DNA from: the human T2T-CHM13v2.0 reference genome, Homo sapiens
Strand: one strand, 5' to 3'
Assembly: GCF_009914755.1 (NCBI RefSeq)
Contig: NC_060927.1
Length of the DNA stretch: 64,000 nucleotides
The translations under genes and the position numbers were made by a program. How positions within the stretch are numbered: position 1 is the first letter of the stretch; the number at the start of each line of letters is the position of its first letter. Under the pieces are notes generated by a model, which saw nothing but the letters and a program-made list of their open reading frames with translations, was not told the DNA's origin and made no database searches. Below are positions 1-19,965 of this stretch, one piece after another.

Positions 1-331
1 TCTGCTGCTGCTCTGGATCTGAACTGTTCCCTCTGGGACGGTTTCCATGGGAAGGGAGGCTGGAGTGGCTAGGATCTCTAGGCTCTTTACCACTAAGGGA
101 CCAGCAGGGAAAACATACTGCAGGCACTCAGGGCACGAGAAGACAGTGGCTAATGGCTCAGAAGAGTTTCTGAGACCAGGCCTGGGGTCTGCCTTACATC
201 GCTTAGTTGAGTGAATTGTTTGTAAGTGGCTGTTGATGGCTCTGGGTTTAAACCCCATGCAAGCCCAAGAACAGCTGCCCCCAACTGACTTAACCTCAGT
301 TTCCCTGAGGCTGGAGCAGCCACAGACCTCC

Positions 332-514
332 CAACGCCAAACCTGCTGAGACCCTGAAGCCCATGGGCAGCGCCAAGCCTGATGAGAACCTGAAATCCAC
401 TAGCAAAGAAGAACTCAAGAAAGATATTAAGAATGATGCGAACTGCAAGAGAGGCCATGCAGGGACCACAGATAATGAAAAGAGATCAGAGAGCCAGGGG
501 ACAGCCCCAACCTT
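332..514 (+). pseudogene. Inverted partial duplicate of MYLK exon 18 (copy of 2307-2489) in intron 18
   Basis: Manual alignment to the reverse complement of 2307-2489: 174/183 identical, no gaps. Confidence 0.95.
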
Positions 515-1524
515 GTCCTGAGGATGGTGGATGCCACCCTGCATCCTGCCTGGAGAGATCACCGTAGGGTGACCTGGGAAATGTTCCCAGTCAGGGTTTC
601 CAATCAGTTTTACCAAGGACTTTCCAAGTGGGAGAGCCCCACAGGGGCGGCAGGACAGGTTGTGGCGTCTGCTCCTCTGAAGTCTCACCCCAGCCCAATA
701 ATCCCCCATGCCTCAGGGGAGGGGGGCTGAGCCAGCAGAGGTGGGGGATGGAGGAGACGACTTCTGGAGGACCCTGCCAATCTGAGGACATCCACATGGA
801 AAAGTTACTGCGTCAACACATTAGCAGAAAATAACATGTTTCTCTCTGCCAGCCAGTGTCCCCTTCACTCTTTCAGCACTGAGATTCAATATACTCAGCT
901 GCTCCAGGTGTGCTGTCCCAGATGTAGAGGGAAGACAGACCCTTACCGGGGGCTGAGAGGGATTCTGTGATCTTCAAATGCTCCATTCTGCTTGTGAGGG
1001 GAAGGCAGGCACGATAAAAGGTGAGGGAGGGAGTGGGGAGGGTGCTGCCAGGGGCCAGGGAGGGGAGCAGCCCACAGGAAGAGCACTCTGACACCTCAGC
1101 TGACTCAGATTTGACAGGACCTGTCCACTCCGGCTTCTTCTGTGGCTGCCCTCTGCCCCTCAAGGGTGAAATGTCACTTCCTGGGAGCTTCTTTGTACCC
1201 TACCCTGTCTGGAGCCACCAGCATCAGCTCAGGCAGGACTCTGTTCTGTGCTGGCAACCTATCCCTCCGCTGGCTGCCAGAATGGGGTGTGGAGGTCGGC
1301 CGGCCTCAGAGCTCCCACCCAGACTTGGGATTTACAAAAGCACTTCAAACCAAATTGAGGGTCCAGAGAAAATACTCCTGTGTCACCCCCATCTCTTCTC
1401 CAAGTATAAACTGGCTCCTCTGAAAACTCCAGACCCCAAAAGTCCACACAGATGGAAGGATTTGGGGCCCCCCTCCTCTCCCCACCATCCAAGAATGTGA
1501 AATACCAGCAAACAAAAGTCTCAT

Positions 1525-1534
1525 CCAAATTAGG
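1525..1534. promoter_or_regulatory. Intronic CArG box CCAAATTAGG (candidate SRF site)
   Basis: Exact CC(A/T)6GG match in the first intron of the smMLCK transcript. Confidence 0.5.
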
Positions 1535-2157
1535 AAGCGAGTAGCTCTGTCTGCCCGTGAGTGTGTGCTGTAGGGGCTGTTTTGGGATTTTGGGTTTCCC
1601 GACAGATCCCTTCAAACCCACAGTGCTATCAAGACTGAAGTTATTGTTGACCCCAACTCAGAGCTCCGTGCCATCTGGTCACTGCACACCGTTCCCCAAA
1701 CCTAAGATGCTTCTCTAAACAGCTCTTTACTCAGAGCTTCTCCCTGGCTCCAGCCTCTGTGTCCCCCACCTCCAAGCCTGTAGACAGAGCCCTCTCCATG
1801 CCGGAGCTTGGAATTAACTCAGGCTCAGGTCTCCTCTGGGGAGCCACAGGTGGCGGTGCCATGAGAGGGCTCTGCCAGATGGGTGCCGAGATGTGGGCAT
1901 GTGCCACAAGGACCAGGATCCCAGCCCTTAGCCCCAGCCTTGGTGCATGTACCCAAGGCCCCTGAGCCGGGACCTATCCTTGAGTTAGCAGGAAACAGGG
2001 ACGCGGCCCTCCTACCCAGCAGGCCCTCCTACCTGCTAAACCAGGTTAGCAGCCTACCTATGGGCTGCTAACAGGGGTCAGCGAGACCAACGCTCCATGA
2101 GCTAGGAGTGGCCCTGGTACAGAGGCCCCTTCTTCCCCAACCCCCATGCTCATTTAC

Positions 2158-3143
2158 CTTCCTGGGAGAGGATGATGAACTTGGTGGTCTTGAGGGTCTT
2201 TCCATTCAGCGTCCAGATGATGGTGGCTGGGGGGTCAGAAGACACCTGGCACTGGAGCAGCAGCTTCTTGCCCTCTGCCACATGAACATCTTGCAGCTTC
2301 TGCTTGAAGGCTGGGGCTGTCCCCTGGCTCTCTGATCTCTTTTCATTATCTGTGGTCCCTGCATGGCCTCTCTTGCAGTTCACATCATTCTTAACGTCTT
2401 TCTTGAGTTCTTCTTTGCTAGCGGATTTCAGGTTCTCATCAGGCTTGGCATTGCCCATGGGCTTCAGGGTCTCGGCAGGCTTGGCGTTGCCCATTGGCTT
2501 CAGGGTCTCAGCAGGCTTGGCGTTGCCCACGGGTTTCAAGGGCCCTGAAGGCTGTGCATTGCTCAGGGGCTTGGAACTCTCCACTGCCTTGGCATTCAGG
2601 GTCTCGGCACTGCTGCTGCCATTCTCTGCTGGTAATTTCTTCTTGCCACCCAGCACTGAGCGAAAATCCGGGGTGGCAGGTTTTGGCGGTGGCACCTTCT
2701 CAGGCACGGGGGTCTTGGAAGTCCCCTTCTTGGCCAGGACAGAGCGAAAATCGACCTGCTGGGGGCTGTGCACCTTCCTCTCTTCCTCAGACACAGTCTT
2801 TGGCTTCACTTGCCGCTGCAGGTTGGCACGGAAATCCATCTGCTCGGCTGGGATCTCCTTCAGGTCGTCTTCCGATAGGGTCTTTGTACTCACCTTCTTC
2901 CCCAGGAGGTCTCGGAAGTCCAGCTGCTCCACCTCCTGCTGGCGGATCGCCTCCTCAGTGTGCTGCCTCGTCTCCACGCGCCTCTTCAGCACCCCTCGCA
3001 CGTCCTCGCCGTCTTCCTCCTCTAGCCAACCCTGCCCTCTTGCTGGCCAGCCAGGCCTCAGGGACCCATAGCGGTCACTACCACCACCATCAGCACCAAC
3101 TCCTCCACCACAGAGGTCCTCGCAGCTGGCAGGCTCCCTCCCC
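2158..3143 (-). CDS. MYLK: MYLK exon 18 (986 bp): DFRxxL actin-binding motifs, 12-aa repeats, start of an Ig domain; contains the smMLCK ATG (Met923, 2837-2839)
   Basis: Translates GREPASCEDL...DFRDLL...MDFRANLQ...KFIILSQE; ttgcag acceptor and gtaaat donor; phase matches exon 17. Confidence 0.98.
2423..2605 (-). repeat. MYLK: Coding 36-bp (12-aa) tandem repeats, e.g. GNAKPAETLKPM
   Basis: Three near-identical and two degenerate units visible in DNA and protein. Confidence 0.9.
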
Positions 3144-3283
3144 CTGCAACCAGTGTAGGGAAAAAGGAAAGTAGCAGGAGGAAAAGGGGCTGGGTAAGAA
3201 AGAAACTTCAGGGGAGAGCAAATCCCTGAGGGTGGGAGGGTAGAGGGGAGCGGGAGGGGATGGGGGAGGCCGGCCAGGCTGTG

Positions 3284-3289
3284 TTTATA
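3284..3289 (-). promoter_or_regulatory. TATA box (TATAAA) of the smMLCK internal promoter
   Basis: TATAAA on the minus strand, about 70 bp downstream of the CArG box and upstream of exon 18. Confidence 0.6.
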
Positions 3290-3357
3290 GATGGGAACAT
3301 TGGTGAGAGGCGCTCGCTTGCTTAGTTGGTTTATTACATCGGTAATGACTTCAGTAG

Positions 3358-3367
3358 CCTTATAAGG
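3358..3367. promoter_or_regulatory. CArG box CCTTATAAGG of the smMLCK promoter
   Basis: Perfect palindromic CC(A/T)6GG; smMLCK is known to use an SRF-dependent internal promoter upstream of the Met923 exon. Confidence 0.8.
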
Positions 3368-3375
3368 GTGTGTGC

Positions 3376-3397
3376 AAAAAAAAAAAAAAAAAAAAAA
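3376..3397. repeat. A22 homopolymer next to the CArG box
   Basis: 22 consecutive A with no adjacent Alu body. Confidence 0.95.
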
Positions 3398-3577
3398 TCA
3401 CCCCCTCCTTCCCCTGCTCTCCCTCCCTCATTCCCCTTCCAGGCTCTCCCTTCTGGCTTTGGCAGCCTCAGCTGCAGGACACAAACAATCTAGGGCTGCT
3501 GGGCTGGAGCTGCCGGGGCCAGGAGGAAGGTGGGGATGGGGGCATGGCCTGGAGGGGCAGCTCCTGGGGGCACTCAC

Positions 3578-3649
3578 CGTGGAAGGGCTCTGGCAGAGCT
3601 GTTCTGTAGCATCAGTGACACCTGGCAACTGCATTCGCCAACCCGGTTC
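3578..3649 (-). CDS. MYLK: MYLK exon 17 (72 bp)
   Basis: Translates NRVGECSCQVSLMLQNSSARALP; ttcag acceptor and gtgagt donor. Confidence 0.96.
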
Positions 3650-4847
3650 CTGAAGAATTCCAAAGATCAATAAAGATCAAGAGGCCCTCTGGGCAAAGGG
3701 CCTGTTCAGTGTGGACTTGATCACAGGCTGCTGGCCAGCGGGGAAGATGGAAGTCGCCGGCTTGACTGAGACATTCACCCCAGCCTTAGATTTAGGGCAG
3801 GACCCTCTCACTGTGTGGTCACCCTTTATTTTCTCAGCTCTTATTTAAAAAGAAGAAGAAAAAAAGAATGTCTGGACAACAGCTAAGGCAGGCATCCAGA
3901 AATAGGAACACTTTTCTGTAAGTATATAATATAATCATTCAATCAATCACTCACTCACTCAACCAATAAAAGGGGAAGGAGAAAGGCTAACCCTGCTGGG
4001 AACTGTGATGTAGCAGGTTGGTCTAGACAGATAGGCCCTGGTGGTGGGCCTGCCCAGTGACCTTGACTCTGACTCCATGATCCCTTAACACAGAAGTAGT
4101 TCCTTTCCCTCTCTTGCTCGGGAATGGAAGCACCCTTAACCCCCACTCATTGATAATGCTCTCAGATCAGAACTTTTTGTGTTAAAAACCCAACAAGTGT
4201 TTTCCTACATGAGTGGCCCTTTCTCTTCTTCCTTCAGGTGGGGAGGGCTCTGGATTCTTCATGTCCATAAACCTGGTCAGTCTCCTGCTGGTGCACAGAG
4301 GCTCAGGCCCTCTGCTCAGGGGAGGGGCTGTACCCTGTCTGGCTACAGTGCAGTGGATTTGCAGCAGATTGTCCCTCCAACCCCATAAGGCTGCCACCTG
4401 CTGGCATTTCTGAGCTCTGACCAGACAAGAAGGTTCTGCTCAGGCTAGGGGAAGGGGTGGGGGCAGGTCTGCGAGCCAGAGGTGACTAGTGATGGTTGTA
4501 ACAACTGCATTTCATACAGCACCCTCCAGCTTTCATGACACCCACACGCAGTTCTTTCTTGATATCCACAGCATGCCAGAGAGGTATAGAGTACTGCCAT
4601 GCCCAATTTAAAGATAAGGAAAGGGGGCTCTGGGGTGGGACCCTCAGGGTCTCTGACAACAGTGCTCCCACTCATGCCCCTGGATGTGGCCGTCTCACTA
4701 GCACTCAGACCCAATAGCAGATGTGCCAAGCTCTGTGACAGATTCTTTACATGAGCCATCTCATTTAATCTTAGAACAGCTCTGTGAGATTAGAGTCACC
4801 ACTGTTTTTATAAGGTAAGAAATATGAGGCTTATAAAGGTAAAGTAG

Positions 4848-4975
4848 TCCAGGCACAGTGGTTCATGCCTGTAATCCCAGCACTTTGGGAGGCTGAAGTG
4901 GGAGGATTGCTTGAGCTCGCACGTTTGACACCAGCTTGGGCAACATAGCAAGACCTTACCTCTATTAAAAAATAT
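4848..4975 (+). mobile_element. Alu left monomer (FLAM-like) inserted in a MIR
   Basis: GCCTGTAATCCCAGCACTTTGGGAGG...GGGCAACATAGCAAGACC, monomer length. Confidence 0.8.
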
Positions 4976-6761
4976 AATACTGAAGGTCAAGGTTAAGTAA
5001 TTTGCCTAAACACACAGAGCTTGCTAGTGGAGGGAGGGGTTGGGACCTGTGACCCTATGACCTTTGCACTCTACCCTACTGTGCTTATCAGTACAAATCT
5101 GGTCTGGGACATGTGTGTGTTCATGCACATATGTAGTTATCAACCATACACATGATGTACACATATACTGGTCTAGCTGGCAGGCACCTGCACCTGGAGG
5201 TCTGTGTTTGGGAATATGTGCACATATGAGTTACATCCACCTGGACAGGCATCTGAGCATGCGTTCTTGTGTATTCTGCTGGCGTGTGTGGGTCTCCACC
5301 TCACTCTGCCTGGCCTCCCTCCCAGTGGACAGACACTGGTAGCCCATGGCCTGGCCCAGGATTCTCAGGGGCTCTGGGGCGCTGCTCACCCTTGGGTGCT
5401 GGCACCCATTTGAAGCAAGGAGAAGCCAATCGTTGCTATCCTCCAGCCCTCCTCCCGCCTGCTGGGCTCCTCTCCTTTGTCCTTCTCTCCAGTGCCCTCG
5501 TGCTGTCCCAGGCTGTGCTGGTGCAGGTGCCTTCCTGACTGCCTTAGCTCTTTCACTCCTCTCTCCTCCCTGGCCATGTATCCCATAGCCTGTCCCCTCC
5601 CAGCCACCCTCCTCAATGCTCAGACTGTCAGAGGGCACAGATTCAAGGTGCAGGGAGTCTCAAGTCTGGAGAATTTTGAGTTCAGGTTGTTCCTTTGCTC
5701 AACAAACAGCAATTAGAAACCTCATGGGTGCCAGGCCCTGGGAGAACGAAGAGGTCCTCAGCGTGCCCCGAGTTCTCAACACTTAAAAAGGCTTATGGAC
5801 TTTGGGTGAGCTTGTAGAATAACTGTGTGAGGTCACCCTGCTTCTGCCAGGCTGCTGGCCAGTGTCAGGCCACTCTTTTCCTACCTTTAAGCACAGCCTT
5901 GTGGTGCCTGGGTTGACATGGAGCAGGAAGATGAGATGCCCAAGGGCTGTGTTTGCCTGGCAGCCCTTTCAGCATCTCCTCAGCAGAGTTTCCTCCTGTC
6001 ACCAGTAGAACACAGCCCAGATGCAAACATCAGGAGCAGACACTGCCCAGATGGCGGCTTTACCCCAGCTGGACTCCTCTGAGGCTTTGGTGGTGGACAG
6101 CCCTGTGCCGCAAGCTGGAGTAAGCCGATTCTCCCCATGGGGGAAGCAGGTAAGGGCTTCTGTCACTTTCCATGACCTGTGCTCAAGGTGGGGAGCACAG
6201 ACTCAGACAAGCCTCTCAAGGGCTCCTGTCCAATCCAGCCCCAGGCCTTACCCTGTGGCCCCCAGCAGTCTAAGGGGTCAGAGAAAGGTGGAGGACTTGG
6301 GATACAAAGGCTGACGCATTAAGTGGATCACCTGGTGGCAGGGCAATAGCAGTAACTATTCCTACAGCCATACCCTTAAATCTCTGCTGGGCCTTTAAAG
6401 CAAACCATGGGTTCATTTGCAGCCTATAAAGTTCATAGTGGCCTCCTGCCTGGGACCCACATGTCAGATCACCTAAGCTGCTGGAACAGGGTCTTGGGGC
6501 CATCTTTGACATCTGCACATAACCAGTTACAAAATCAGGGCCGGGGCTGAAGATGAGGCCCCATCCCAGGAGCTGCCACAGAGCATATGGGGCTATCATC
6601 CTATAAACTGAACCTTTCACAAAGAGTCCTTTTGCCTTGGCTTACTAAGCTCTGAATAAGAGTTCCACTCTGGTTACAAAGCCTTGGATCCTGTCCCACC
6701 CTGAATCATCTACCTCTTGGATGGGTTCTATATGGAAAAATTACTTTAAAGAACTAATTTC

Positions 6762-7178
<417 letters not shown>

Positions 7179-8862
7179 CTAGGAAGGGAAGAGAGGCAGA
7201 AACTACCCACCCATACCTGCCTCACAATCCTAGCAGGGACAGGCAGGATCTGCCCACCCCTCTACCCCCTGCACACCGGACCCCCGGCTTCCTCCCAGCC
7301 ATCCAGTCATTCCCCTCGAAAGGCACCCTGCTCTACGTCTAGGTTGCTGGAGGAGTGAGGTCTCTGGCAGGCCTGCCACGTACCCTCAGGAAACTCTCCA
7401 CTGACTTGCTTCTTCTCAGGTGGGGAAAAAGCCAAGGCCAGGGCAGTGGCCTCCGAAAGGAATGAAGAGGCTGGACTTTGGGGAAGAAAAAGAGGCAAAG
7501 GCTGCAGGCTGGAGGCTCCAGTGTGGTTTCCCAGGTCCTTCCAGTTCCCTGTGCACTTGGGAGAAACTCCCCAAGCAGAGCCATAAGGAATGGAAGAGCA
7601 TCTGATTTAAGTCAAAAGATGAGGGCTTGAACTTGGGCTCTGTTACTTGCCTTTGGATGGCCACAAGCAAGTCCACGACCCTGAGACCTCAGTGTCCCCC
7701 GTTATTAAATGACGATGAGGCTGGATAACTTCTGAAGCCCCTTCCTGCTGGGACAGTCTAAATTTTATGACTGTCCCCAGCTGGCCCCAGACAGTCTGCC
7801 TGCCGACCTCCTGGTGCACGCCTCCTCTCTGGCCTGGCAAACTTCCCACAGCCCTTTGCTTGGCTCTGCCCCCACCCCACCCTTTCTTGCTCGGCCTACT
7901 CAACAGCTAAGCCTTATCACATTTGCCAAGACTCAGCCTTCCTTTTCCATCAAAATCCCCAAACAAGCTCATCTCCTCTAGGATGTCTGGCTTGAGTAAT
8001 GTAAGTATTATCTCAAAGTGCTACTCCTTCTATACTGACGAGATCATCAGCAGGTATTTTTACACATCATCGGTTTCCATTCTTTGTACTGACCTAGGGG
8101 GTAAGCGTGTACCTTCTCCCCATTTTGGAGGCAGAGTGGCCTTCCTGGTAATAACTAGTTCAAGCATAATGCAAAGGCAGTTGATGCATTCTGAGTGTAC
8201 CGCTAATAATAGTAGGGGGACCAGCAGCTCACAAGCATCCCATCACTTGACCACAACAGACATGTCATTGAGCTCAGCTGAGATTAGCCTTGCCTAAATC
8301 AGCAGAACTTTATAGGAGACCCAAAGACTCCTAAGAAATAATGAAACTGCTTTAAAAATAAACGAGCTATTTTTAATAGTTATTAAGTATTGGGGTGGTT
8401 CGTTATGCAGCAAAAGATAACTGATTCAGGTATAAAGCACATGGTCACAAAGGACCTAAGGGGATGGGGTACATATTGGGTTTTGCAGTAGCCTTGGCAT
8501 TTAGCTCTAGAGCTTATTTGTAGCTCAGAGCTGTGAACATGATGGGCTCAGCATGGGGAGATGATAAAGTACAGGCGAGAAAGCCCCTTGCAAAGTGGTC
8601 AGGCACCCGGGCCAGGACAGGTCTAACCATCCTCAGGATGTGGCACGACCTCCTATTTGTAGGTTAGGTGCAAACAAATGCTCTTCTTCGATGCTTACAC
8701 CAACCCCAGGACCCACAGAAGGCATTCTGTCTCCATCAATCCAGGGCTGGCATAGGATTTTAAGAGACAGGGCATTTTCAAGGTAAAAGAGCATTTCTGA
8801 ATCACATTCATCTAATAAATAGCTACCCAATGTCGACTATGGGCTCTCCACTGTTCCAGGCC

Positions 8863-8958
8863 TGGAAATGTAGCAGTGTGCCTCATGGAAATGTAGCAGT
8901 GTGCCTCATGGAAATGTAGCAGTGTGCCTCATGGAAATGTAGCAGTGTGCCTCATGGA
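8863..8958. repeat. 23-bp minisatellite TGGAAATGTAGCAGTGTGCCTCA x4.2
   Basis: Four identical copies. Confidence 0.97.
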
Positions 8959-9030
8959 GCTGACCTTCCCATGTAACCTAGCAAGCCCTTGAAAAGGAGA
9001 GAAAAAAGTAATGGGGAAAGGTAACCTCCC

Positions 9031-9569
9031 TGTGGTAGTTTTAAAATGTCTGCAAATTCTTCTCTCCAAGAGGTGGAACTGAATTTACCTCCCCTTGAGT
9101 ACGGGCTGTACTTAGTGACTCACTTCTAACAAAGTCGGAAGTGATGGCGTGTGGCTTCCAAGGGTAGGTCTTAAAAGACACTGCAAGCTCTGACCTGGGC
9201 TCCCTCTTCGATCACTAGCTCTGGGGAAGCCAGCTGCCATGCTAAAAAAGACACTCAAGCAGCCCCACGGAGAGGTCCACAACGCAAGGAGCTGAGTCCT
9301 CCCACCAACAGCCAGTGAGGAGCCGAGGCCTCCCACCTACAACCAGTGAGGAGCTGAGGCCTCCTGCCACAGTCACGGGAGTGAGCCTTGGAAGCAGATC
9401 CTCCAGTGTCAGTCAGGCCTTCAGAAACTGCAGCCCCTGCTGACATCTTGACTGAAACTTCAAAATCATCCAGCTAAGCTGCTTCCAAATTCCCAGCTGG
9501 GAGATGATAAATGTTTCAAGCTGCTAAGTTTCAGGGTAATTTGTTACACAGCAACAGATAACAAATGCA
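9031..9569 (+). mobile_element. MaLR solo LTR (MLT1F-like)
   Basis: TGTGGTAG start and GGTAATTTGTTACACAGCAACAGATAAC end typical of MLT1. Confidence 0.75.
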
Positions 9570-9892
9570 TTCCCCCTATCCCCCTGCTTTTCCAACTTTG
9601 ATCCATTCCTCCTTCCTTCATACTCACCATACACCACATAATGGGGGAACAAGGATGTAACAAGACAGGATTCTGGGGAACTGAGCTCAAAAGGGAAAGT
9701 TCTAATGAACATTTGCTATACTGAAGTGGAAGAAGCAAAAGCTTGTGAGCAGCACTGAGCCCGCACTTGCTTTACCTGGAAGTCCAAGCCCCACATCAGT
9801 TTGTGCTTCTTCTGGCTGCCCAGACCCAGGTTAGGGGAGCTAGGAATTTGGAGGGAAGGGTTAAGGGAGGCTGGCTGGACATGCAGACTCAC

Positions 9893-10142
9893 TTGAGCAG
9901 GATCTCATACTGGCCGGCATGCCAGGGCTGCACCTTCTTTAGAACCAGGGTGAACACGTCCTCATTCTGAAGCACCTCGAAGTGGCCAGTGTCTTTGCAG
10001 AGGGCTTTGCCATCTCTGAGCCAGTGCACGGTAGGAAAGGGGTCACCAGCTATGGCGCAGGAGATGAGGACACTCTGGCCCAGGGAGGCTGTCACTGAGC
10101 GAGGCTTACTGATGAACCAGGGCTGGGTGCCATCGTGAGGCT
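9893..10142 (-). CDS. MYLK: MYLK exon 16 (250 bp), Ig domain
   Basis: Translates EPHDGTQPWFISKPRSVTASLGQ...GQYEILL; AG/GT boundaries. Confidence 0.97.
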
Positions 10143-10836
10143 CTGGAAATTGGCAAAGGGCAGAGCTAAACAGGGATGTCCCTCAGCAGGCAGTGTCCAC
10201 TCAATTCTCCATGGAGGTGAAGGATGGGAAGATAGCATGTCACCCAAGTAACAGATTGTCCAGAAATCACTGTGATTGGATACACAAATGCAGCACACCC
10301 TTCTCATTGCACATCCATCTCGGATACATTCTCAGAGGATAATATTAACATGACTGTATATCCAATGTAAGGGGAGGTAGCCCAGAAGGCACGGGGCACC
10401 GAGCCAGGTGCTAATGATCTGTATCCAATGCGTGTGATTAAGAGTTGTCACTCACTTTATGTGTGCTTAACTTGCCTCTCCTCTTAAATATGTTATCTAA
10501 TGGCAAGGACCCTGTTAAGCCTATAACTCACCTCAAAATCTATCGCTGCCAAATTGTTAAGTGTATTACAGATTTCCCTCTTAGTACTCTATGCACCTTG
10601 GCACCAGTAACCCAGAGAGGGCAGGGACTTCAGAAAGCTGGGAAAGGCAGCCCCACTCAGTCAGAGCTTGTGATGTTGGACAGGGAGCTGGCCTCTGGGG
10701 CTGGGGTGGGACTGAGGGACGAGAGGGCCCTCAGTGGGAACAAAGTAGCCTCATGTGGTTTCCTTGCCTCCAAATCACTTTTGGAGGGGCTGCAGCAGCA
10801 TCTCCTTCCCACTCGCTCTGAGTGGGTCAGCCTCAC

Positions 10837-11034
10837 CTTGTACCGTGAGCACGGCCTGGGTGCGGACCTCTCCAGCGCTGTTCCAGGCCTCGCAGGTGTA
10901 CGTGCCCGTGTCCTCCGGGAACACTTCCTGGATACAAAGGCTGTGCTGAGTTCCTCTCTGTTCAAAGTGGAAGTCCTCTGACTCTTGGATCTCATTCCCA
11001 TTGTGCAGCCAGATGACTTCAGGGGGTGGATTCC
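10837..11034 (-). CDS. MYLK: MYLK exon 15 (198 bp), Ig domain
   Basis: Translates NPPPEVIWLHNG...DTGTYTCEAWN...LTVQ; AG/GT boundaries. Confidence 0.97.
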
Positions 11035-11273
11035 CTGAACCAGGAGGAGGGGAAGGGGGATTGGTTAGGGAGGTCCTCCCCGGCCATGCAGCAACTCTGC
11101 GCTGAATGCAGTGATATTGGATGAAACACTCCAACAACTCTCTATGCTTTCACTTCCCCATCAGTAAAATAGGAATTCAAACAGGATCTACCTCATGGGT
11201 TTGTTGGGAGGACCTTAAAATTTGAATAGTGCAACTGAGAACATCTTCTGAGATTTGGGAAGTTCTCACATAA

Positions 11274-11578
<305 letters not shown>

Positions 11579-11894
11579 CATAATCTGGTTTTGTACCAGT
11601 CTTCAAAACCTTCCAGCTACACTGGCCACACTATATTTTCAAATTAATCTTTCACTGCTCTAGCTCTATGGCCATCTTCTTCCTCTGGACCATTTAATCA
11701 TGAATCCAGAAAATCCTACCCAGAGAAGGCAGAAAAGAGAGGACAAGAGTCTCCATTTCTTTGGGTCCATCACCTGATGGTCCCATCTGATTTTCTGGTG
11801 GATCAAGGATCTGAGCGGGTCCTCGGAGAGCAATACCCATTGCAACCAAGACCATTTTCATGTTAATCCCCAAGAGAGAGCTGCAGAGACAGAC

Positions 11895-12032
11895 CTGACA
11901 CTTGGACAGTCATAGTGACCTGGCTTCCATCCATGACTTTGAGATCAGAGAGGCCCTGCAGGAAGATGGGTGCAGTGGGCTTGCTGGGAGCCACAGGCAG
12001 AAGGTACTCACTCTTCCTGCTACTCTTCTTTT
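11895..12032 (-). CDS. MYLK: MYLK exon 14 (138 bp)
   Basis: Translates KKSSRKSEYLLPVAPSKP...VTMTVQVS; cacag acceptor and gtctgt donor. Confidence 0.96.
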
Positions 12033-12649
12033 CTGTGTGGTAGAAAACAGAACGTGGGGTGAACATTCATGCATTCATTCAACAAACACAGACTAAATGA
12101 CCACTTGGTACATGACTGTGTTGATGCTCAGTTCCCACCAGAAACTGGCAGCTAACAGATAAAGAGTGTTTGGAGTTTCTAGAGATCATTAGGAACAAGA
12201 TGCCTCCCATTTCTCTGCTTGGCAATGACGATGTTCTTGCCTGATAGCCAGGAATGAACAATGAGTTCTTATAAGTTTGTGAGTTTTAAAAAATATTTTA
12301 TTTATTTTTCAGATAAATGATACACTCACATGGCACAAAATTCAAAAGGTACCAAAGAGTATGGCAAGTCTCCCTCCCACCCCATCCCCCAGCCACCAGT
12401 GATCTCTCCTCAGAGGCAACGAGTTTTCAGTTTCTTGTTCATCTTGCCAGAAATGATCTACGTGTGTAACATACAGAAGCAAACAGGCATTTATTTTCTT
12501 CTTAAAAAAGTAAATGAAAGCACGTTACACAAAATGCTTGGCATCCCTTTAACAATACATCTTGGTGTCTCTCATAAGACAGAACTGAAGAGCTTCTTTG
12601 TCATTTTCGATAATTATATGGTGCTCCATTCCCATCCTAGGAGGTTTTA

Positions 12650-13520
<871 letters not shown>

Positions 13521-15717
13521 GGGAGAAAAAATCAATTTCTCTGAGACAGGGAGTGTATCGGCAAGTCAAGGAGGAGGGTGAGAGGCCTGGCGCCTCACTC
13601 ACATTCAGTTTCTTGTGGAGGTGGGTGAACAGCCTTTCCTCATGCTTAGAATCCCTGCCTCACAGGAGCTGAAGGGGAGGGGACTGCAGAGTGGCTGGCC
13701 CTGCCATCCACGTCTCACAGGGAACAATCCTGGTGCAGGACAAGCCATGGCTGCCCAGCCTCTGGTATCTCCCTTGGTTCTGTGAGCCAGGCAGCTTGAC
13801 TTTCAGTAATGCCATTTTAGCAATTTTTGTTTTTGTTTTTGGCAGGTTCAACTGTTGAGAAAGGGAGGGTTAGGATATCTCTAACTTAAACCCTAAGTTT
13901 CTGGGGAAAGGGCCACAGGCATTTTGGGTTCTTCTCAACACAGGACCACAAATACTAGACCTTCTTCAGGAAGTGGAGCCATGGGGAGGTTTCCAGGGTA
14001 TGTAATGTATCTGGGCAGGTGTCACCTCCAAAGTTGCCACCGAATTTTTATCCACTGCCACTGAAAATGAAAGCAGGCCTACTGTAGAACTCTCCTAGCC
14101 CAGCCTCTGGGAACCTGGATGGGGAGAGGCTGGGAAGGTCCAGGAGGCTGGAGGAAAACTTCCCCCAAAGCAGGTGCAGTTGAAGGGCATGGAGCCTGAG
14201 TGTGAGAGCAGGTAACCCCCCACGGTCCCCTTGGAAGATGGGGCTCTCAGGCCCCTGCTGCTCTCTGGTGCTGCTGACTCAGCACCGCAGCCTTCGACGG
14301 AGGGCCGCCAGGGGCCTTGGCAGAAGCTCTGGGAGTGGGCTTGGGGGCACAGGATTGGAAATGCATTGATCTATCTCGTTTCTCTCACTAGGCTGCAGCA
14401 GTCAGGAGAGCTGGCTGCCTCGGGAGAGTTGAGGAATTTCCTGTCTTGCACAGACTGAGAAGGCTCAAGGACAAAATGTTTTTGTCTTTCTATAGCATTC
14501 CCTGTTCCTGCCTCTCTGCAATCTCAGCGAGTCCCCAGCCTTACAGAGCTTCATGCAGATGGGCTCAAATTCCTAGATGCTACGGGAACGTCACCAACTC
14601 CAGCGCACTCCCCTTTAAGCCTGTGGCAGTCTCCTCTTCAACCCCACCTTCTCTGGGTTCTTCCCACAGCCCCTGTTTCCTGGGGGTTTGGCAAAGCCAA
14701 GTCACCCTGTGGGTCTCAGCCATTGGGGACTAAAAGCCTATCTGCCTCTCCCTCCCCTGGGAGCTCAGAAGTATGCATGAAAGGGTGGCCTGGGAGCTGC
14801 CTCCCACCTGGCAGCTCACTGGTTCCACCTGCAGCTGTGGAGGGGATCCTGGCCTCAGGCAAGTCTGCCTCCGTCTGAAGCCCCACTTCCTCATCGGTCT
14901 CTACGGGGAGTCGTGGTATCATCACAGGACTTTGGGTAGTTTTAAAGAGATAATAGGTAAAAATACTTTGTACAACCATTCATTATCAATGAGAACATTT
15001 GTACGAGCCTAGCATGAGAACTGACTCACATCTATCCACTTGGGCTCAATTACTCAATGGGTTTATCAGCAGTCAAAGAACCAATGGAGTCTGGGCTTCA
15101 CCCAAGGATTATGGACTCATTTTTATAGGACCTGAGGCAAATACTATTAGGAATACAAATGCGTTGCTTAAAAATATCATGGGATATATCTCAAAGTAAA
15201 TTGAGGACAAGCTTTCATTGCACCCCCTCCAGGAGATGAGTGAGTGAACTTGGGGGAAACCGGCCGATCGGCAGACATTTAGTTCGGTGTCACTCATTGC
15301 CCCCGGTCCTGTGTTTTGTTCCCCAAAGCCCTACAGCAAGAAAGAAGGGAAGATGGAAATGATTGGGAGTGAATGTTCAGAACGAGCCTGTTCTCAGACC
15401 GGCAAGGTGGGACCCAGTCCCAACTCACCATTCCACTGTACTGGTGTAGAGACCAGGAGAGACTTAACTAACGGGAAGTGACTTGGCTAACATCATGGGG
15501 CCAGTGTGGGCAGACCCAGAGCTCATGCCCAGGCCTTCTGATGACAAGGCCGGGATGTTACGTAGGCGTCCCTTCAAAGGGAACCAGTCTCCTCCAACGG
15601 TGCCCATGGTGACCGCTCCAGGACAAACACACTGTCAGCTGACCCACATCCTAGATCCTTGACAACCGAGAAAAACTAAAGCAGAACAGAGACAAGCCAG
15701 GTGAAAAGAGCAACACA

Positions 15718-15718
<1 letters not shown>

Positions 15719-15755
<37 letters not shown>
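15719..15755. repeat. (TG)18 microsatellite
   Basis: Uninterrupted TG run. Confidence 0.97.
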
Positions 15756-15757
<2 letters not shown>

Positions 15758-18700
15758 TGCAATTCATTCCAAAGCCAAACAAATTATTCCGGCTCATCTC
15801 TGGCCTCTAGCCTCTATCAGTTTCTGCTCACTCTTCTGTGGACTTAAGTAAAATACGAAAGGACAGATGGAAACTGGCATTCTTAACTCGTGGCCCTGGC
15901 TGTGTGATCTGAAGCAACCTTCCCAAAGCAAGCCTCGGTGTTCTCTCCTCCAAACTTATGGCAACATAATACTGAGAAGTATGATGTCTGCATCATCAGT
16001 CTAATGCATGGTAATATTGCAGGGTTTTAGATGATTAGAAAGTAACATATAAAACAGCTAGAACAATACATGGCACACAAGCAGTATAAAAATCAATGTT
16101 TTCTGACTTTCCCAACCCAACTAACTCCTTTGGTTGTGGAAATTCAACCTGATAATAACTCCAATGAGAAAAACCCCCCAAACCAGAACTTTCATGTAAC
16201 GATGATTCCTTATAAAGCCCAGCGCTCCAGGATTCCAAAAGATGTTCATAGCTAATTCAGTGTTACCCTCAACATCTCGGAAGTATTGGGCAGATTGTGT
16301 CCGTTTTACAGTGGAGGGAGCTGAGACTCAGAGAAAGAAGCTCGCCTGTCCTAAGGTCCTGGGGCTGCGATGCCCCATGAGGAGGGAGATGCTGCTGGTG
16401 GGGTCCTGGTCTGGGTGCTTTCCCTTGACTGTCCTGGGAGCAGAGGCAGGTCTCAATTCTGTGAGGAGCTTTCTGTCATCATCCATATTCATGTCCAGAG
16501 CTACCCATTACCCTGGGAGTCACTCCTCTCTGCTTGTCCTTGGCCTCCTTCTAGCATCATCCTGGTTTAAGGACCAGGGTCTGAGGCAAGAGGCCCCCAG
16601 TGACAAGGTTGTCTCAGAGAGCCCAAGACTTCTTCGTCTTGGGAGGACACCCACTGGCCATGGCACACAAATAGCAAGGGATGCTTTGCTGGGACCCAGT
16701 GACAGACTTGCCCAGCTCAAATGGGGCCAAACTAAATATACCCCGGGTTTCCCCACAGCTGTGCTTCCTGCTGCTCTGCTGAGACTGAGCCCAGAGAGGG
16801 CCTTCTTTCTGGAGTGCAGAAAGGGCTGAGTCTCCTTGCTTTCCTTGCCTAGGATTAAGGATCTAAAGTGCATTTATCTGTTGCTCTGTTACTTGGTATT
16901 AGCCAATTCACTCCTGGACTCAGTCATTAAACTGCCACTGTCCCATTTTGACAGAATGGAAAAGGATTGATCGGGCTGTCGTCCAATGGGAAAGACAAGC
17001 ACAATGACTACGAATAAGCCCAAGCAGACTGCTGACAAGTAAAAACGATGCCATGTAGACGAAGCTGTTAATAGGACTTAAGAAAGAGCAAGAATGGAGA
17101 AAGGGAAGAACAGAGAGAAGAGAAAGAAAAAGAGGCAATGTGAAGAAGAGAGAGGGGGAAAAGGGAAGCAAAGGAAGGGGGAGAGAATGAGAGACAGACA
17201 GATATACGCACTCTCCCCTTTATGATTCTACTGACCCATGGAGTTTTTCCGTCCTTGCCATTTTGGCTGTTTTTGACTCACTAGAAGTTGTTTTTGAAGC
17301 CAGTTCCTAGTCATGAAACTAAACATGAAATGATCGCTCTGGTGAAGCAAAAGCATCAAACAAATGACCTATCAGGATCCAAGAGCAGCCATGCAGAAAG
17401 CCCATGGGCTGAAGCAGGTGGTGGCCTGGTGCTGCTGCTGATCACCTGGACTACTGTGGGCAGCTGACATCACCTCCTGAGCATCACTTTCTTCATCTGT
17501 AAAGTGAATTCGGAAGTGTCAAGTGGAGTTGTTGTGAGAATTAAATAAAACAAGCCAGCTTTTCTAGCCAATTAGACTTTCCTATCAAACAATTCCTTCT
17601 TAAAAACAAATTGATAGTGGTTTTACTTTAAAAACCTAATATAAATTGATACCCAACATGGCGTTTTGGAAAGCTTTTATTTAGAGGAAGAGTTAGGAGC
17701 AGTTTGCTACCTCTTGCACTAATTCTTCTTATAAAATAACCAGTAAAGCCTCTTCTTCAAACCCAGCACCAGGAGTGAGGCCTTTACCTCCTCTAGGACC
17801 TGACACTAGGAACCCACTGTTGCCTTTGTCCTGGTGGCTGACCAGGATCTGCCATCTCCTTCTGCACTACAATAATTCTCCTGTCTTCCCTTCACAGCCC
17901 TTCCTTTTCTTTCCGTTGTTTTAGTAGGAAAAACAACTAAATTCTGAATTTCTCCTTATAAGTGTGTTTTTCTACCTGCCAACATTTGCTGGTCAACTTG
18001 CTACTTTCTGAAGCCCCAAGGTCCTGGATCCAAATTTGCATTCAACGCATGTTTGCCTTAATCTTGGATCTACCAAATATTTTCCTTAGGCTTTGAACAT
18101 GAGCTGTATTCCTTAGTTATTACAATGCAAAATGCCATTCCAACAGCAATTCTGATTCACTCCAAACCCTGTTATACTATGGAAATTCAACAGATCACCA
18201 ATTGAGGGGGCACCATGGAAGCACAGTGCCCCCATCTTTCTTTATTTGGAGTTCAAAATCCAGCATGGTCCAGGGATCACCACCAGCCTCCTCCTTTCCC
18301 TAAATTCCAGGATTGTTAACTCTGGAGGATTCATCAAAGAAGAGTTACATTCTCCCTGCTGACACGCCACACAGCCCCTTCCCATTTCCAGGGGGTTTGT
18401 GCAAGCTGTAAATCCCCGGGGCATCTGAATTCCCCTTAAACAAAAGTCTGTCTCCTAACCAAACAGAACCTTCTTGAAGTCAGCAAAATGGCTACTTTGT
18501 GGCATTAAAAGGATTTTTCCTCCCATAGCCTTGTTTTCTTTTGGCCTCCCTTCCTCCCAGAACTTAAGAAGCAAATGGGAAGAGAAGTGTGCGAGGAAAA
18601 GAATGAAAGGAACAATGACGTATAATATCCCAAAAAAGATCTCTGACCAGTAATGATAGGGTTGCTAGCTGGGAAGCAAGGATCACTGAAACCACAGCCT

Positions 18701-19965
18701 TTCCACTGTCTTAGAAGCTATAATCACACTCTAAACATAAAGGTATGGCATCCAAACCACCCACTGTTCCCTCCCAGTGCGGGCCTGGAAGCCACACTCT
18801 CAGTTACACTGTCATCACATGGGTCACATTTTGCCACTAGGAGCTCAATGCTGCGATTCTGGATAGCATTCTTGATCTGGGTCTCTATGTAATTATGACT
18901 GACTATGGGCTGTAGAGGTGGAGAGTTATAAAGCTCTATAATGGCCCTATTAGTAAAATGAGGCTCAAATTCTATGGCATGGGCACAAACGTACACGTAT
19001 ATGCTCAGAAGTCTTTCTGTAACACAAAGAACCCATGTGGTACACAAACCCAATTCTGTACTCAACCTACATAAAATGAAAATATTGGTTATAAATTTTA
19101 ACATGTAATTAATTGCTTGCCTTCTTACAGTTTAAAGGCTTGTGGACAGATGTTTTGAATAAACTAAGCTTCTTAATATATATAAAAAAGGCAAGTTAAA
19201 ACTGGTATTTATTCTTCTTCAATATATTTTTCTGTAGCCAATGTAAGTATTTAAGAAGTTGTCAGTGTTTTTAAGCTTGAGGAGGTCAGGATCCATACGT
19301 TATGTTAACTGGATAGATTGTATAGTGTCCAAAGTACCTGTGCATAACCAGGGAAGACAAAGGAGGTGGCTCCAGGCTGCCCCGCAGAGTGTCTGGTATT
19401 AATCTGAAAACAAACTGTGCCTCTACTCATTGCCAAGCAAACGCTGACTTCACTGATGCCTGTTGTCTTCATTAGAAGCTCTGCATCAAAACAAATACTC
19501 TAATAAATATGCTTGTTATATTTTATTATCTATTCTAGAGATGATCTTTTCATCTTTTTAACTTACCCACATTTTATGTCCTTAGATGCCTTAAACAGGC
19601 CCACTAGGCCTTCAGTTAAATAAACAAACCGTTAGGCTGAGAAACTATGTCAAATGGGCACAACTGGCAGGCTATTAATAAATCTAGACACTTAAGAATT
19701 TTAGCCTTGATGGAGATACTCCAGGGGGAAAAAAATTTTAAATATTCTAGCCCAAGGAAGCCCCCAGCAATGACTCAGTCCAAACGCTGTGAAATATATA
19801 CTGTATTTCAGATATTCCTGGGCTCTGCAGGAATTTGAATTAATCATCCTGGATCAGGACTCATCCTGGGTCAGGAGGAAAGACATTCATTGCTTGGTTA
19901 ACTATTGGGGAATTTTTTTTCCCTAGCCTGTGTTGGGGAAAGAAGGAATATTTGTTGAGGGACTC

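What the first reader, a model, noticed from the sequence alone, without database searches (positions are those of the whole stretch)
332..2489. Inverted intronic copy of exon 18: a built-in 183-bp exon-intron RNA duplex
Seen: 332-514 is the reverse complement of coding 2307-2489 (174/183, no gaps). All 9 differences are transitions (341, 347, 370, 371, 399, 425, 426, 439, 510). In the minus-strand pre-mRNA these give 6 G-U wobbles and 3 A-C mismatches, so 180/183 positions can pair. The roughly 1.8-kb loop contains the exon 18 donor (2157) and an intronic CArG. There is no poly-A tail or clear TSD, and one junction falls inside a 36-bp repeat unit. Inference: a template-switch duplication created a non-Alu editing-complementary sequence against coding sequence shared by nmMLCK and smMLCK. 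It could affect ADAR editing, donor choice or dsRNA sensing, and could also cause read mis-mapping or gene conversion.
Basis: partly seen in the sequence, partly recalled or inferred. Interest (0 to 1): 0.82.

Follow-up and report, generated by a model that had tools for sequence, protein, structure and literature searches.

The report
Inverted MYLK exon copy in intron
A 183-base piece of MYLK exon 18 was copied backwards into the next intron millions of years ago, probably by a DNA replication slip, so the gene's raw transcript can fold into a long double-stranded stem, but nothing yet shows that this stem does anything.

Summary
Window 332-514 is the reverse complement of exon-18 coding 2307-2489: 174/183, no gaps, 9 transitions. 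It is the strongest of 57 inverted-repeat pairs in the window.

The MYLKP1 paralogue (chr3:75.37 Mb) is colinear with window -755..19103. It lacks exactly the intronic arm and has 25 unrelated bases there. The junctions carry 2-nt and 1-nt microhomology, with no poly-A and no target-site duplication. This fits a templated inverted insertion of about 180 nt that replaced about 25 nt (template switch / MMBIR type).

A clock against MYLK-MYLKP1 intron divergence makes it about as old as that duplication (ratio 1.2-1.6, CI 0.5-3.0). It is therefore old and probably fixed.

The arms are predicted to pair in the pre-mRNA (-371 kcal/mol; 180/183 pairs kept in the fold of the whole 2158-nt segment).

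Function is unsupported. The substitutions look neutral. A GTEx-wide table of coding-sequence editing sites has no MYLK entry. I found nothing in print on this repeat.

Verdict: a real feature and a new example of a known kind of mutation. A functional role is possible but unshown.

The parts
332..514 (+). Intronic arm. It reads as MYLK coding sense on the + strand, so it is antisense to exon 18 within the minus-strand MYLK pre-mRNA. The net inserted DNA is 334-513 (180 nt).
   Evidence: 174/183 to the reverse complement of 2307-2489; absent from MYLKP1, alignment breaks at 333/514
2307..2489 (-). Exonic arm, the source of the copy, within MYLK exon 18. It encodes NAKPAETLKPMGNAKPDENLKSASKEELKKDVKNDVNCKRGHAGTTDNEKRSESQGTAPA: the last two 12-residue repeats and the linker before the Ig domain.
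515..2306 (-). 1792-nt spacer, the loop of the predicted RNA stem-loop. It holds the last 149 nt of exon 18, the donor (GT at 2157-2156) and 1643 nt of intron 18. Its orientation in this assembly is the same as in MYLKP1.
332..333 (.). Left junction microhomology CA, shared by the pre-insertion flank (as kept in MYLKP1) and by the exon source.
514..514 (.). Right junction microhomology T, shared by the flank (MYLKP1 ...CA|TGTCCTG) and the exon source.
2158..3143 (-). MYLK exon 18 (986 nt), open in one frame.
   Evidence: hub annotation
2391..2570 (-). 36-nt tandem repeat array in exon 18 (12-residue KPxGNAKPxExL units). The left end of the copy falls inside it, which gives the arm weaker alternative pairing registers (85% and 78%).
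   Evidence: D1, I2, I3
2451..2451 (-). The only exonic adenosine that faces a C in the duplex (codon AAT; A-to-I here would read Asn to Ser). It is the a priori best candidate editing site.
   Evidence: the ADAR preference for A:C mismatches is stated in passages of PMC8897444
1525..1534 (.). CArG-like motif CCAAATTAGG in the loop. Such motifs are not enriched in the window, and this one is not kept in MYLKP1 (GCAAATTAGG there).

Best explanation
The feature is a fixed, old structural mutation. During DNA replication or replicative break repair, a nascent strand left intron 18 and annealed through 1-2 nt of microhomology to the opposite-sense strand about 1.8 kb away in exon 18. It copied about 180 nt and returned about 25 nt beyond where it had left. 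This is a long-range version of the '1-4-3-2' template-switch event, or a two-switch MMBIR event.

The result is an inverted copy of coding sequence in the intron. About 25 nt of a small palindromic intron stretch was lost. The event happened on the MYLK lineage at about the time of, or soon after, the segmental duplication that made MYLKP1. Since then the copy has drifted neutrally.

Consequence: every MYLK pre-mRNA that includes exon 18 (inferred to cover both the nmMLCK and smMLCK forms), and the antisense lncRNA precursor that spans the region, can form a 183-bp, 180-pair stem with a 1.8-kb loop. Formation is possible for the roughly 5.3 kb of transcription before the intron 18 acceptor exists.

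I expect some promiscuous ADAR editing of nascent RNA there. I expect no designed function and little or no recoding of mature mRNA.

Shown: the repeat, the empty site, the junctions, the predicted pairing and the approximate relative age. Inferred: the mechanism of origin, RNA pairing in vivo, and neutrality.
For: (1) Repeat: 174/183, no gaps, sharp ends.

(2) Copy number: only three genomic places hold the sequence, namely the two arms and the MYLKP1 exon copy. The flank 515-1400 has only two places. It is therefore not a dispersed repeat.

(3) Empty site: MYLKP1 is colinear with window -755..333 (94.4%) and 514..2018 (93.8%), with 25 unrelated bases between them. No other template of 13 nt or more for those 25 bases was found in 134 kb of the two loci; one 12-mer match was seen. 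They contain a 7-bp-stem hairpin.

(4) Junctions: microhomology CA and T, no poly-A, no target-site duplication. MMBIR junctions typically show 2-5 bp of microhomology (PMC2621351 abstract). The 1-4-3-2 switch type creates inverted repeats and made up 31% of high-confidence human-chimp events (PMC5453318 passages).

(5) Age: MYLK against MYLKP1 non-exonic divergence is 5.11% over 16,952 sites. Non-CpG sites are at 3.97% and CpG sites at 39.7%. The 7-9 changes in the arm give T(IR)/T(duplication) of 1.2-1.6, with a 95% CI of 0.5-3.0.

(6) Neutral look. Four of the differences are synonymous and five nonsynonymous in the old reading frame. Six of the nine lie at CpG sites. P(all nine are transitions) is 0.035-0.055. 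P(at least 6 of 9 are wobbles) is 0.25.

(7) RNA: cofold energy is -371.1 kcal/mol against -32.9 and -49.6 for the arms alone. The MFE fold of the whole 2158-nt segment keeps 180 in-register pairs. Intron 18 is about 7.2 kb, with the arm 1643 nt after the donor and about 5350 nt before the acceptor.

(8) No MYLK entry appears in the coding-sequence editing tables of PMC8897444, whereas ASNS gives 30 and AZIN1 320 occurrences.
Against: No outgroup species could be examined, so the polarity (insertion in MYLK rather than loss in MYLKP1) rests on parsimony. The point estimate of the clock ratio is above 1. Taken alone, that would place the repeat before the duplication.

Microhomologies of 2 nt and 1 nt are weak evidence, because matches that short arise often by chance.

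The source lies within a single exon, so an RNA (cDNA) template cannot be excluded.

The run of nine transitions is of borderline rarity (P about 0.04-0.05). It keeps 6 of 9 changed positions pairable, so a weak constraint on pairing is not excluded.

The absence of MYLK from the editing catalogue may reflect masking of loci with paralogues, or the loss of hyper-edited reads. That pipeline masks loci with clustered mixed mismatches (passages). One supplementary archive was stored cut, and two PDFs could not be read.

No RNA data of any kind were available here.
Confidence: 0.68

Rival explanations
1. The intronic arm is a working editing-complementary or regulatory sequence. The exon-intron duplex recruits ADAR and recodes the repeat/linker region of MLCK. 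Alternatively it sequesters exon 18 enhancer sequences, or slows use of the donor, and so tunes splicing or nuclear retention.
For: The predicted duplex is very strong and survives in the global fold. It has time to form before the acceptor is transcribed. One exonic A faces a C (2451), a configuration favoured by ADAR (passages of PMC8897444). The arm has 66 adenosines in 183 nt. There is a precedent in ASNS, where an exon-intron 50-bp perfect duplex became edited only once an A:C mismatch arose. All 9 substitutions are transitions, and 6 of them keep pairing.
Against: The GTEx-wide coding-sequence editing tables have no MYLK site. No paper links MYLK to editing in two searches. The transition and wobble counts are not significant once CpG sites are allowed for (P = 0.055 and 0.25). 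The divergence of the arm is no lower than neutral expectation. Rfam gives no match in 1-4000.
Confidence: 0.12
2. The copy was made from RNA. A fragment of MYLK (pre-)mRNA was reverse-transcribed, or used directly as a repair template, and captured at a double-strand break in the gene's own intron. No DNA-to-DNA template switch was involved.
For: The source is purely exonic and transcribed. Nascent RNA of the same gene is physically close. The break-repair signature (a small deletion, 1-2 nt of microhomology, no target-site duplication) would look the same.
Against: There is no poly-A tail, no exon-exon junction and no L1-type target site. One end lies in the middle of a repeat unit and the other in the middle of the exon. 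A source only 1.8 kb away is what a DNA template switch in cis predicts. The available data cannot separate the two.
Confidence: 0.1
3. The inverted copy predates the MYLKP1 duplication, and MYLKP1 later lost it (deletion of the arm with a 25-nt filler).
For: The clock ratio T(IR)/T(duplication) has a point estimate of 1.2-1.6. In the 120 unique columns the arm has 4-5 private changes against 2-3 substitutions for the MYLKP1 exon copy. Part of the 25-nt filler (TGTGGCTGC) is the reverse complement of GCAGCCACA, which lies 14 nt upstream of the filler (window 316-324). It could therefore be snap-back filler.
Against: The deletion would have to coincide with both ends of the homology to within 2 nt, which a random deletion would rarely do. 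The confidence interval of the clock includes ratios below 1. The arm is CpG-rich, so its apparent rate is inflated (6 of 9 differences at CpG sites).
Confidence: 0.1
4. Assembly artefact or private allele of the sequenced genome.
For: Only one assembly could be examined.
Against: The arms differ at 9 positions, as expected of old paralogous DNA and not of a mis-join. Both flanks are unique and colinear with MYLKP1. The estimated age is comparable to a duplication that has diverged by 5%.
Confidence: 0.02

Closest known systems
ASNS exon-intron duplex (Gabay et al. 2022, PMC8897444; passages read)
   Same: A coding exon pairs with a sequence in its own intron to form a long, almost perfect dsRNA. 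It is conserved among primates. It is not Alu-derived, and editing depends on details such as an A:C mismatch.
   Different: ASNS has 50 bp and MYLK has 183 bp with a 1.8-kb loop. ASNS editing is documented (30 table occurrences) and MYLK has none. The paper's passages give no origin for the ASNS complement, whereas here the empty site shows an inverted templated insertion.
Short template-switch mutations, four-point model type 1-4-3-2 (Loytynoja and Goldman 2017, PMC5453318, passages); hairpins and new miRNAs from template switching (PMC8794818 and PMC10710096, search listing only)
   Same: A reverse-complement copy of nearby sequence replaces a short stretch and creates a new inverted repeat that can fold as RNA. 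[quoted passage not shown]
   Different: Those events are short and lie within one replication fork. The authors say their model is not meant for long-range switches. Here the copied tract is about 180 nt and lies 1.8 kb away, closer to the FoSTeS/MMBIR scale.
MMBIR / FoSTeS rearrangements (Hastings et al. 2009, PMC2621351; abstract and passages)
   Same: Microhomology junctions, an inverted templated segment and a small accompanying deletion. The reported proximity to low-copy repeats has a counterpart here: the site is 1.1 kb from the edge of the MYLK/MYLKP1 duplicated segment.
   Different: Typical MMBIR events span tens to hundreds of kb. The microhomology here is 2 nt and 1 nt, at or just under the low end of 2-5 bp.
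Classical editing-complementary sequences such as GRIA2 Q/R (recalled, not checked here), and inverted Alu pairs
   Same: An intronic complement of exon sequence (GRIA2), or a long intramolecular dsRNA in pre-mRNA (Alu pairs). Alu pairs in this window are 72-91% complementary among the 25 pairs shown.
   Different: GRIA2-type duplexes are short, imperfect, deeply conserved and demonstrably edited. Alu pairs are repeat-derived and non-coding. The MYLK duplex is long, 95% matched, young, involves coding sequence and has no documented editing.
Plant MIRNA genes born by inverted duplication of their target genes (bioRxiv 10.1101/682591, search listing only; general idea recalled)
   Same: An inverted partial copy of a gene's own coding sequence creates a hairpin that is complementary to that gene.
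   Different: The plant cases are separate transcription units processed by Dicer-like enzymes. Here the copy sits in the gene's own intron, and small RNAs have not been looked for.

Membership tests
Templated inverted insertion by template switching (four-point 1-4-3-2 / MMBIR) | The inserted tract is the reverse complement of nearby sequence on the same chromosome. | tested here: met
   174/183 identity to the reverse complement of a tract 1792 nt away.
Templated inverted insertion by template switching (four-point 1-4-3-2 / MMBIR) | A pre-insertion (empty) site exists in a related sequence, with breakpoints at the ends of the homology. | tested here: met
   The MYLKP1 alignment breaks at 333/514 with 25 other bases between. 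This rests on a paralogue only; no outgroup species was available.
Templated inverted insertion by template switching (four-point 1-4-3-2 / MMBIR) | Microhomology at the switch points. | tested here: inconclusive
   CA on the left and T on the right. They are present but short enough to arise by chance.
Templated inverted insertion by template switching (four-point 1-4-3-2 / MMBIR) | A DNA template rather than an RNA template. | not testable with these tools
   The source lies inside one exon, so no intron or splice junction is included.
ADAR editing-complementary sequence (ECS) | An intronic sequence complementary to an exon, predicted to pair in the pre-mRNA. | tested here: met
   Cofold -371.1 kcal/mol; 180 in-register pairs in the 2158-nt MFE fold.
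ADAR editing-complementary sequence (ECS) | Observed A-to-I editing of the paired exon. | tested here: not met
   Zero MYLK entries in the coding-sequence editing tables of PMC8897444, against ASNS 30 and AZIN1 320. Nothing was found in two literature searches. This is one catalogue only.
ADAR editing-complementary sequence (ECS) | Evolutionary constraint on the pairing. | tested here: inconclusive
   The arm's divergence is at least the neutral expectation. P(all transitions) is 0.035-0.055 and P(wobble excess) is 0.25. No cross-species data.
Retrocopy / L1-mediated processed fragment | Poly-A tail, target-site duplication, exon-exon junctions. | tested here: not met
   None is present. The empty site shows a 25-nt replacement and no duplication.
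Dispersed repeat (Alu or other transposable element) | Many copies in the genome. | tested here: not met
   Three places genome-wide, plus one register-shifted match inside the exon's own repeat array.

The most novel reading that the evidence does not exclude
The intronic arm is a lineage-specific antisense 'landing pad' inside MYLK pre-mRNA, probably restricted to apes. In cis it folds onto exon 18, so that a fraction of transcripts is hyper-edited, retained or degraded.

In trans it is the only stretch of MYLK RNA that is complementary to the sense-oriented MYLKP1 non-coding RNA. The predicted duplex is -299.8 kcal/mol, with 91-93% identity over about 160 nt. That pairing could be the missing mechanism behind the reported lowering of MYLK mRNA stability by MYLKP1 (passages of PMC6116948 and PMC3491395).

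At the DNA level, the two arms (longest perfect run 70 nt) could mediate a cryptic 1.8-kb inversion that removes the end of exon 18 and its donor. That would be a loss-of-function allele hidden from short-read sequencing.
Probability: 0.06. Interest if true: 0.75.

Novelty: new member of a known kind. Interest (0 to 1): 0.42.

Why it matters
The locus gives an unusually clean, datable example of how a long exon-intron RNA duplex is born. Both junctions are visible because a paralogue preserves the empty site. That bears on how editing-complementary sequences and hairpin genes arise.

MYLK is a disease gene. From my own knowledge, not checked here, the associated conditions are thoracic aortic disease and a visceral smooth-muscle syndrome. 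Its exon 18 therefore has two look-alikes, the intron arm and MYLKP1. Either can attract mis-mapped reads. Five of the nine arm differences would read as missense changes. In principle the arms could also drive gene conversion or a cryptic inversion.

If the duplex forms in cells, it is one of the longest near-perfect non-repeat dsRNAs that involve coding sequence. That would make it a natural test case for how ADAR, helicases and splicing deal with such a structure. If the duplex is inert, that result is also informative: it would show that a 183-bp, 95% duplex with a 1.8-kb loop is tolerated in a highly expressed gene.

Tried and rejected

(2) Outgroup species: no tool here holds primate or other vertebrate genomes. 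Within the genome only one paralogue exists, so polarity could not be tested phylogenetically.

(3) A nearby template for the 25 MYLKP1 bases, which would have favoured 'loss with filler' in MYLKP1. No match of 13 nt or more beyond the site itself was found in 134 kb. One 12-mer match lies at window 56131.

(4) Rfam scan of 1-4000 at E up to 0.1: no match.

(5) CArG motif: present at 1525-1534, but there are 4 in the window against 6.9 expected, and it is altered in MYLKP1. I give it no weight.

(6) Selection on pairing: the transition and wobble counts are not significant.

(7) Literature:
- (MYLK / A-to-I / editing / exon / inverted repeat, at least 4 of 5 terms): 373 papers, 15 listed. The four listed that mention MYLK are circular-RNA reviews by title.
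- (MYLK / RNA editing / ADAR1 / editing sites): 2 papers, neither on MYLK editing by title or by the listed opening of the abstract.
- (origin of editing-complementary sequences by inverted duplication): nothing specific.
- Supplements of PMC7006430 (long dsRNA catalogue): 0 MYLK in the 3 files held.

(8) Han et al. 2011, the MYLKP1 paper, is not held. Whether the MYLKP1 transcript contains the exon-18 copy, and the age of the duplication in primates, could therefore not be read. The Genomics 1999 paper on the duplication was seen only as a reference entry.

(9) circMYLK: from recalled coordinates it derives from upstream exons and not from exon 18. I did not pursue it.
Full report
**1.

The repeat finder on window 1-4000 reports an inverted repeat with arms 332-514 and 2307-2489. 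It is 183 nt long, 95% complementary, with 1792 nt between the arms. A base-by-base comparison gives 174/183 with no gaps. The nine differences are at 341, 347, 370, 371, 399, 425, 426, 439 and 510, and all are transitions. Beyond both ends the match falls at once to chance level.

MYLK is on the minus strand. In the pre-mRNA the nine sites become six G-U wobbles and three A-C mismatches, read from the bases. So 180 of 183 positions can pair.

A search of the whole genome finds the sequence in only three loci. These are the intron arm, the exon arm (E = 2.9e-76) and chr3:75370748-75370917, plus one register-shifted match inside the exon's own 36-nt repeats. Among 57 inverted-repeat pairs of at least 80 nt in the 64-kb window this one ranks first. 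The other 24 shown are 72-91% complementary and lie in the stretches masked as repeats.

- The exon ends at 2158 before GTAAAT.
- One end of the copy lies inside the 36-nt tandem array 2391-2570.
- A CArG-like CCAAATTAGG sits at 1525-1534. That motif is not enriched: 4 in the window against 6.9 expected.

**2. What the exon arm encodes**

Exon 18 (2158-3143) is open in one frame. The arm covers the last two 12-residue KPxGNAKPxExL repeats and the linker that precedes the Ig domain begun at the end of the exon.

In that frame the nine differences are four synonymous and five nonsynonymous, as expected for a copy that is no longer read.

**3. The paralogue preserves the empty site**

The third genomic match belongs to the MYLKP1 segmental duplicate. 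According to passages of PMC6116948 it duplicates MYLK exons 13-17 (older numbering) at about 93% similarity.

I fetched 50 kb around it and 20 kb upstream of the window and aligned them. MYLKP1 (chr3:75367877-75388204) is colinear with window -755..19103 in blocks of 92-96% identity. The alignment runs to window 333 and resumes at 514. Between those points MYLKP1 has 25 bases (TTGTGCAGGCCTGTGTGGCTGCACA), where MYLK has the inverted copy.

Three bases are shared by the flank as kept in MYLKP1 and by the exon source: CA at 332-333 and T at 514. The net insertion is therefore 334-513 (180 nt), with 2-nt and 1-nt junction microhomology.

There is no poly-A and no target-site duplication. The CCTGAGG found on both sides is present on both sides in MYLKP1 too, so it predates the event.

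The 25 bases contain a 7-bp-stem hairpin. No other source of 13 nt or more for them was found in the 134 kb examined; one 12-mer match was seen.

The flanking intron has only these two copies in the genome, and exon 18 only the three places already named. No further internal outgroup exists.

**4. Mechanism of origin (inferred)**

Read along the + strand, the product is: left flank up to point 1 (333); then the reverse complement of 2488 down to 2308 (points 2 to 3); then the right flank from point 4, which lay about 25 nt beyond point 1. The order of the points along the reference is 1-4-3-2.

In the four-point template-switch model this type creates an inverted repeat. It made up 31% of high-confidence human-chimpanzee events (passages of PMC5453318). 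Those events are short and within one fork, and the authors exclude long-range switches from their model. The present case has a 180-nt tract copied from 1.8 kb away. That is closer in scale to FoSTeS/MMBIR, whose hallmarks are microhomology of 2-5 bp, inverted segments, small deletions and proximity to low-copy repeats (PMC2621351 abstract and passages).

The insertion site lies 1.1 kb inside the edge of the duplicated segment. An RNA template cannot be excluded, because the source lies within one exon.

**5. Age**

Over 16,952 aligned non-exonic sites MYLK and MYLKP1 differ by 5.11%. Non-CpG sites differ by 3.97% and CpG sites by 39.7%. The transition fraction is 0.69.

I took half of those values as per-lineage neutral change and treated the exon arm as nearly frozen. 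On that basis an arm as old as the duplication should carry about 5.7 changes. The observed 7-9 give a ratio T(IR)/T(duplication) of 1.2-1.6, with a 95% interval of 0.5-3.0.

The three-way alignment of intron arm, exon arm and MYLKP1 exon copy covers 120 unique columns:
- Three differences are private to the intron arm (425, 439, 510).
- At one column all three sequences differ (426).
- One difference is shared by the arm and MYLKP1 at a CpG (399).
- MYLKP1 has one private substitution and a 4-nt insertion.

MYLKP1 also has 72 nt (two repeat units) fewer than MYLK exon 18.

The clock therefore says 'about as old as the duplication, and not much younger than half its age'. The exact coincidence of the MYLKP1 gap with the ends of the homology says 'not older'. 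I conclude the insertion arose on the MYLK lineage at about the time of, or soon after, the duplication.

An absolute date of roughly 15-25 million years, and the prediction 'shared by great apes', rest on recalled primate divergence figures and were not tested here.

**6. RNA consequences**

The two arms cofold at -371.1 kcal/mol, against -32.9 and -49.6 kcal/mol alone. The minimum-energy fold of the whole 2158-nt pre-mRNA segment keeps all 180 in-register pairs.

Exon 19 begins near window -5019, so intron 18 is about 7.2 kb. The arm is transcribed 1643 nt after the donor and about 5350 nt before the acceptor. The duplex can therefore form before the intron can be removed (inference).

Only one exonic adenosine faces a C (2451, codon AAT, Asn to Ser if edited). 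ADARs favour such mismatches inside long duplexes (passages of PMC8897444).

The + strand lncRNA locus that spans the region (hub table) would carry the complementary hairpin.

**7. Evidence on function**

None of the evidence supports a function, and some is against it.
- The substitution pattern shows no clear constraint. Six of the nine differences are at CpG sites. P(all transitions) is 0.035-0.055 and P(at least 6 of 9 wobbles) is 0.25. The longest perfect run is 70 nt.
- The GTEx-wide catalogue of coding-sequence editing (PMC8897444) has no MYLK entry in the three supplementary files held. The same search finds ASNS 30 times and AZIN1 320 times. One archive was stored cut and two PDFs were unreadable. 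The pipeline also masks loci with clustered mixed mismatches. The negative is therefore meaningful but not final.
- The long-dsRNA study PMC7006430 has no MYLK in its three held supplementary files.
- Two literature searches found no paper on MYLK editing or on this repeat.
- Rfam has no match in 1-4000.

**8. Comparison with known cases**

The nearest described case is the ASNS exon-intron 50-bp perfect duplex. It is conserved in primates and became edited only after an A:C mismatch arose. Mechanistically the feature belongs with template-switch mutations that create hairpins and with MMBIR.

It fails one defining test of an editing-complementary sequence, namely observed editing in the one catalogue available. 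I therefore do not file it as one. It may still behave like one in nascent RNA.

**9. A speculative extension**

MYLKP1 RNA is described as sense-oriented and as lowering MYLK mRNA stability (passages). The intron arm is the one place where MYLK RNA is antisense to it. The predicted trans duplex is -299.8 kcal/mol, with identity of 91-93%.

I could not read the original MYLKP1 paper, so I do not know whether its transcript contains that segment. I rate this reading, together with a cryptic inversion allele, at about 6%.

**10. Verdict**

Function is unproven, with mild evidence against it. The feature is a new member of a known kind of mutation and of moderate interest.

Noticed in passing
window 2019-2054 (intron 18, about 100 nt from the exon 18 donor): MYLK has 36 extra bases relative to MYLKP1. 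They repeat the preceding GGCCCTCCTACC and contain a near-palindrome. One part of it is the reverse complement of GGCTGCTAAC, which lies just downstream (the small inverted repeat 2035-2054 / 2063-2082). This may be a second, short template-switch-like event in the same intron, or a deletion in MYLKP1.
   Followed up: partly
L008 / chr3:75370700-75371000 (MYLKP1 copy of exon 18): The pseudogene copy lacks 72 nt (two of the 36-nt repeat units) and has a 4-nt insertion (GACA) that breaks the reading frame. The number of 12-residue repeats therefore differs between gene and pseudogene.
   Followed up: partly
window 3358-3367 (intron 17): A second perfect CArG-type motif, CCTTATAAGG, lies next to a run of about 24 A at 3377-3398. 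It is about 50 nt downstream of 3308, where an exon of an alternative LOC105369194 transcript begins (hub table). Significance unknown.
   Followed up: no
window -755 and 19103 (chr3:126417245 and 126437103): These are the ends of colinearity between MYLK and MYLKP1 in the 50 kb examined. The duplicated segment is about 20 kb. Its distal edge lies only 1.1 kb from the inverted insertion.
   Followed up: partly
window 316-324 and L008 3966-3990: The pre-insertion site as kept in MYLKP1 is locally palindromic. GCAGCCACA, which is still present in MYLK at 316-324, is complementary to TGTGGCTGC inside the 25 lost bases. Those bases also hold a 7-bp hairpin stem of their own. This may have been a fork-stalling site.
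   Followed up: partly
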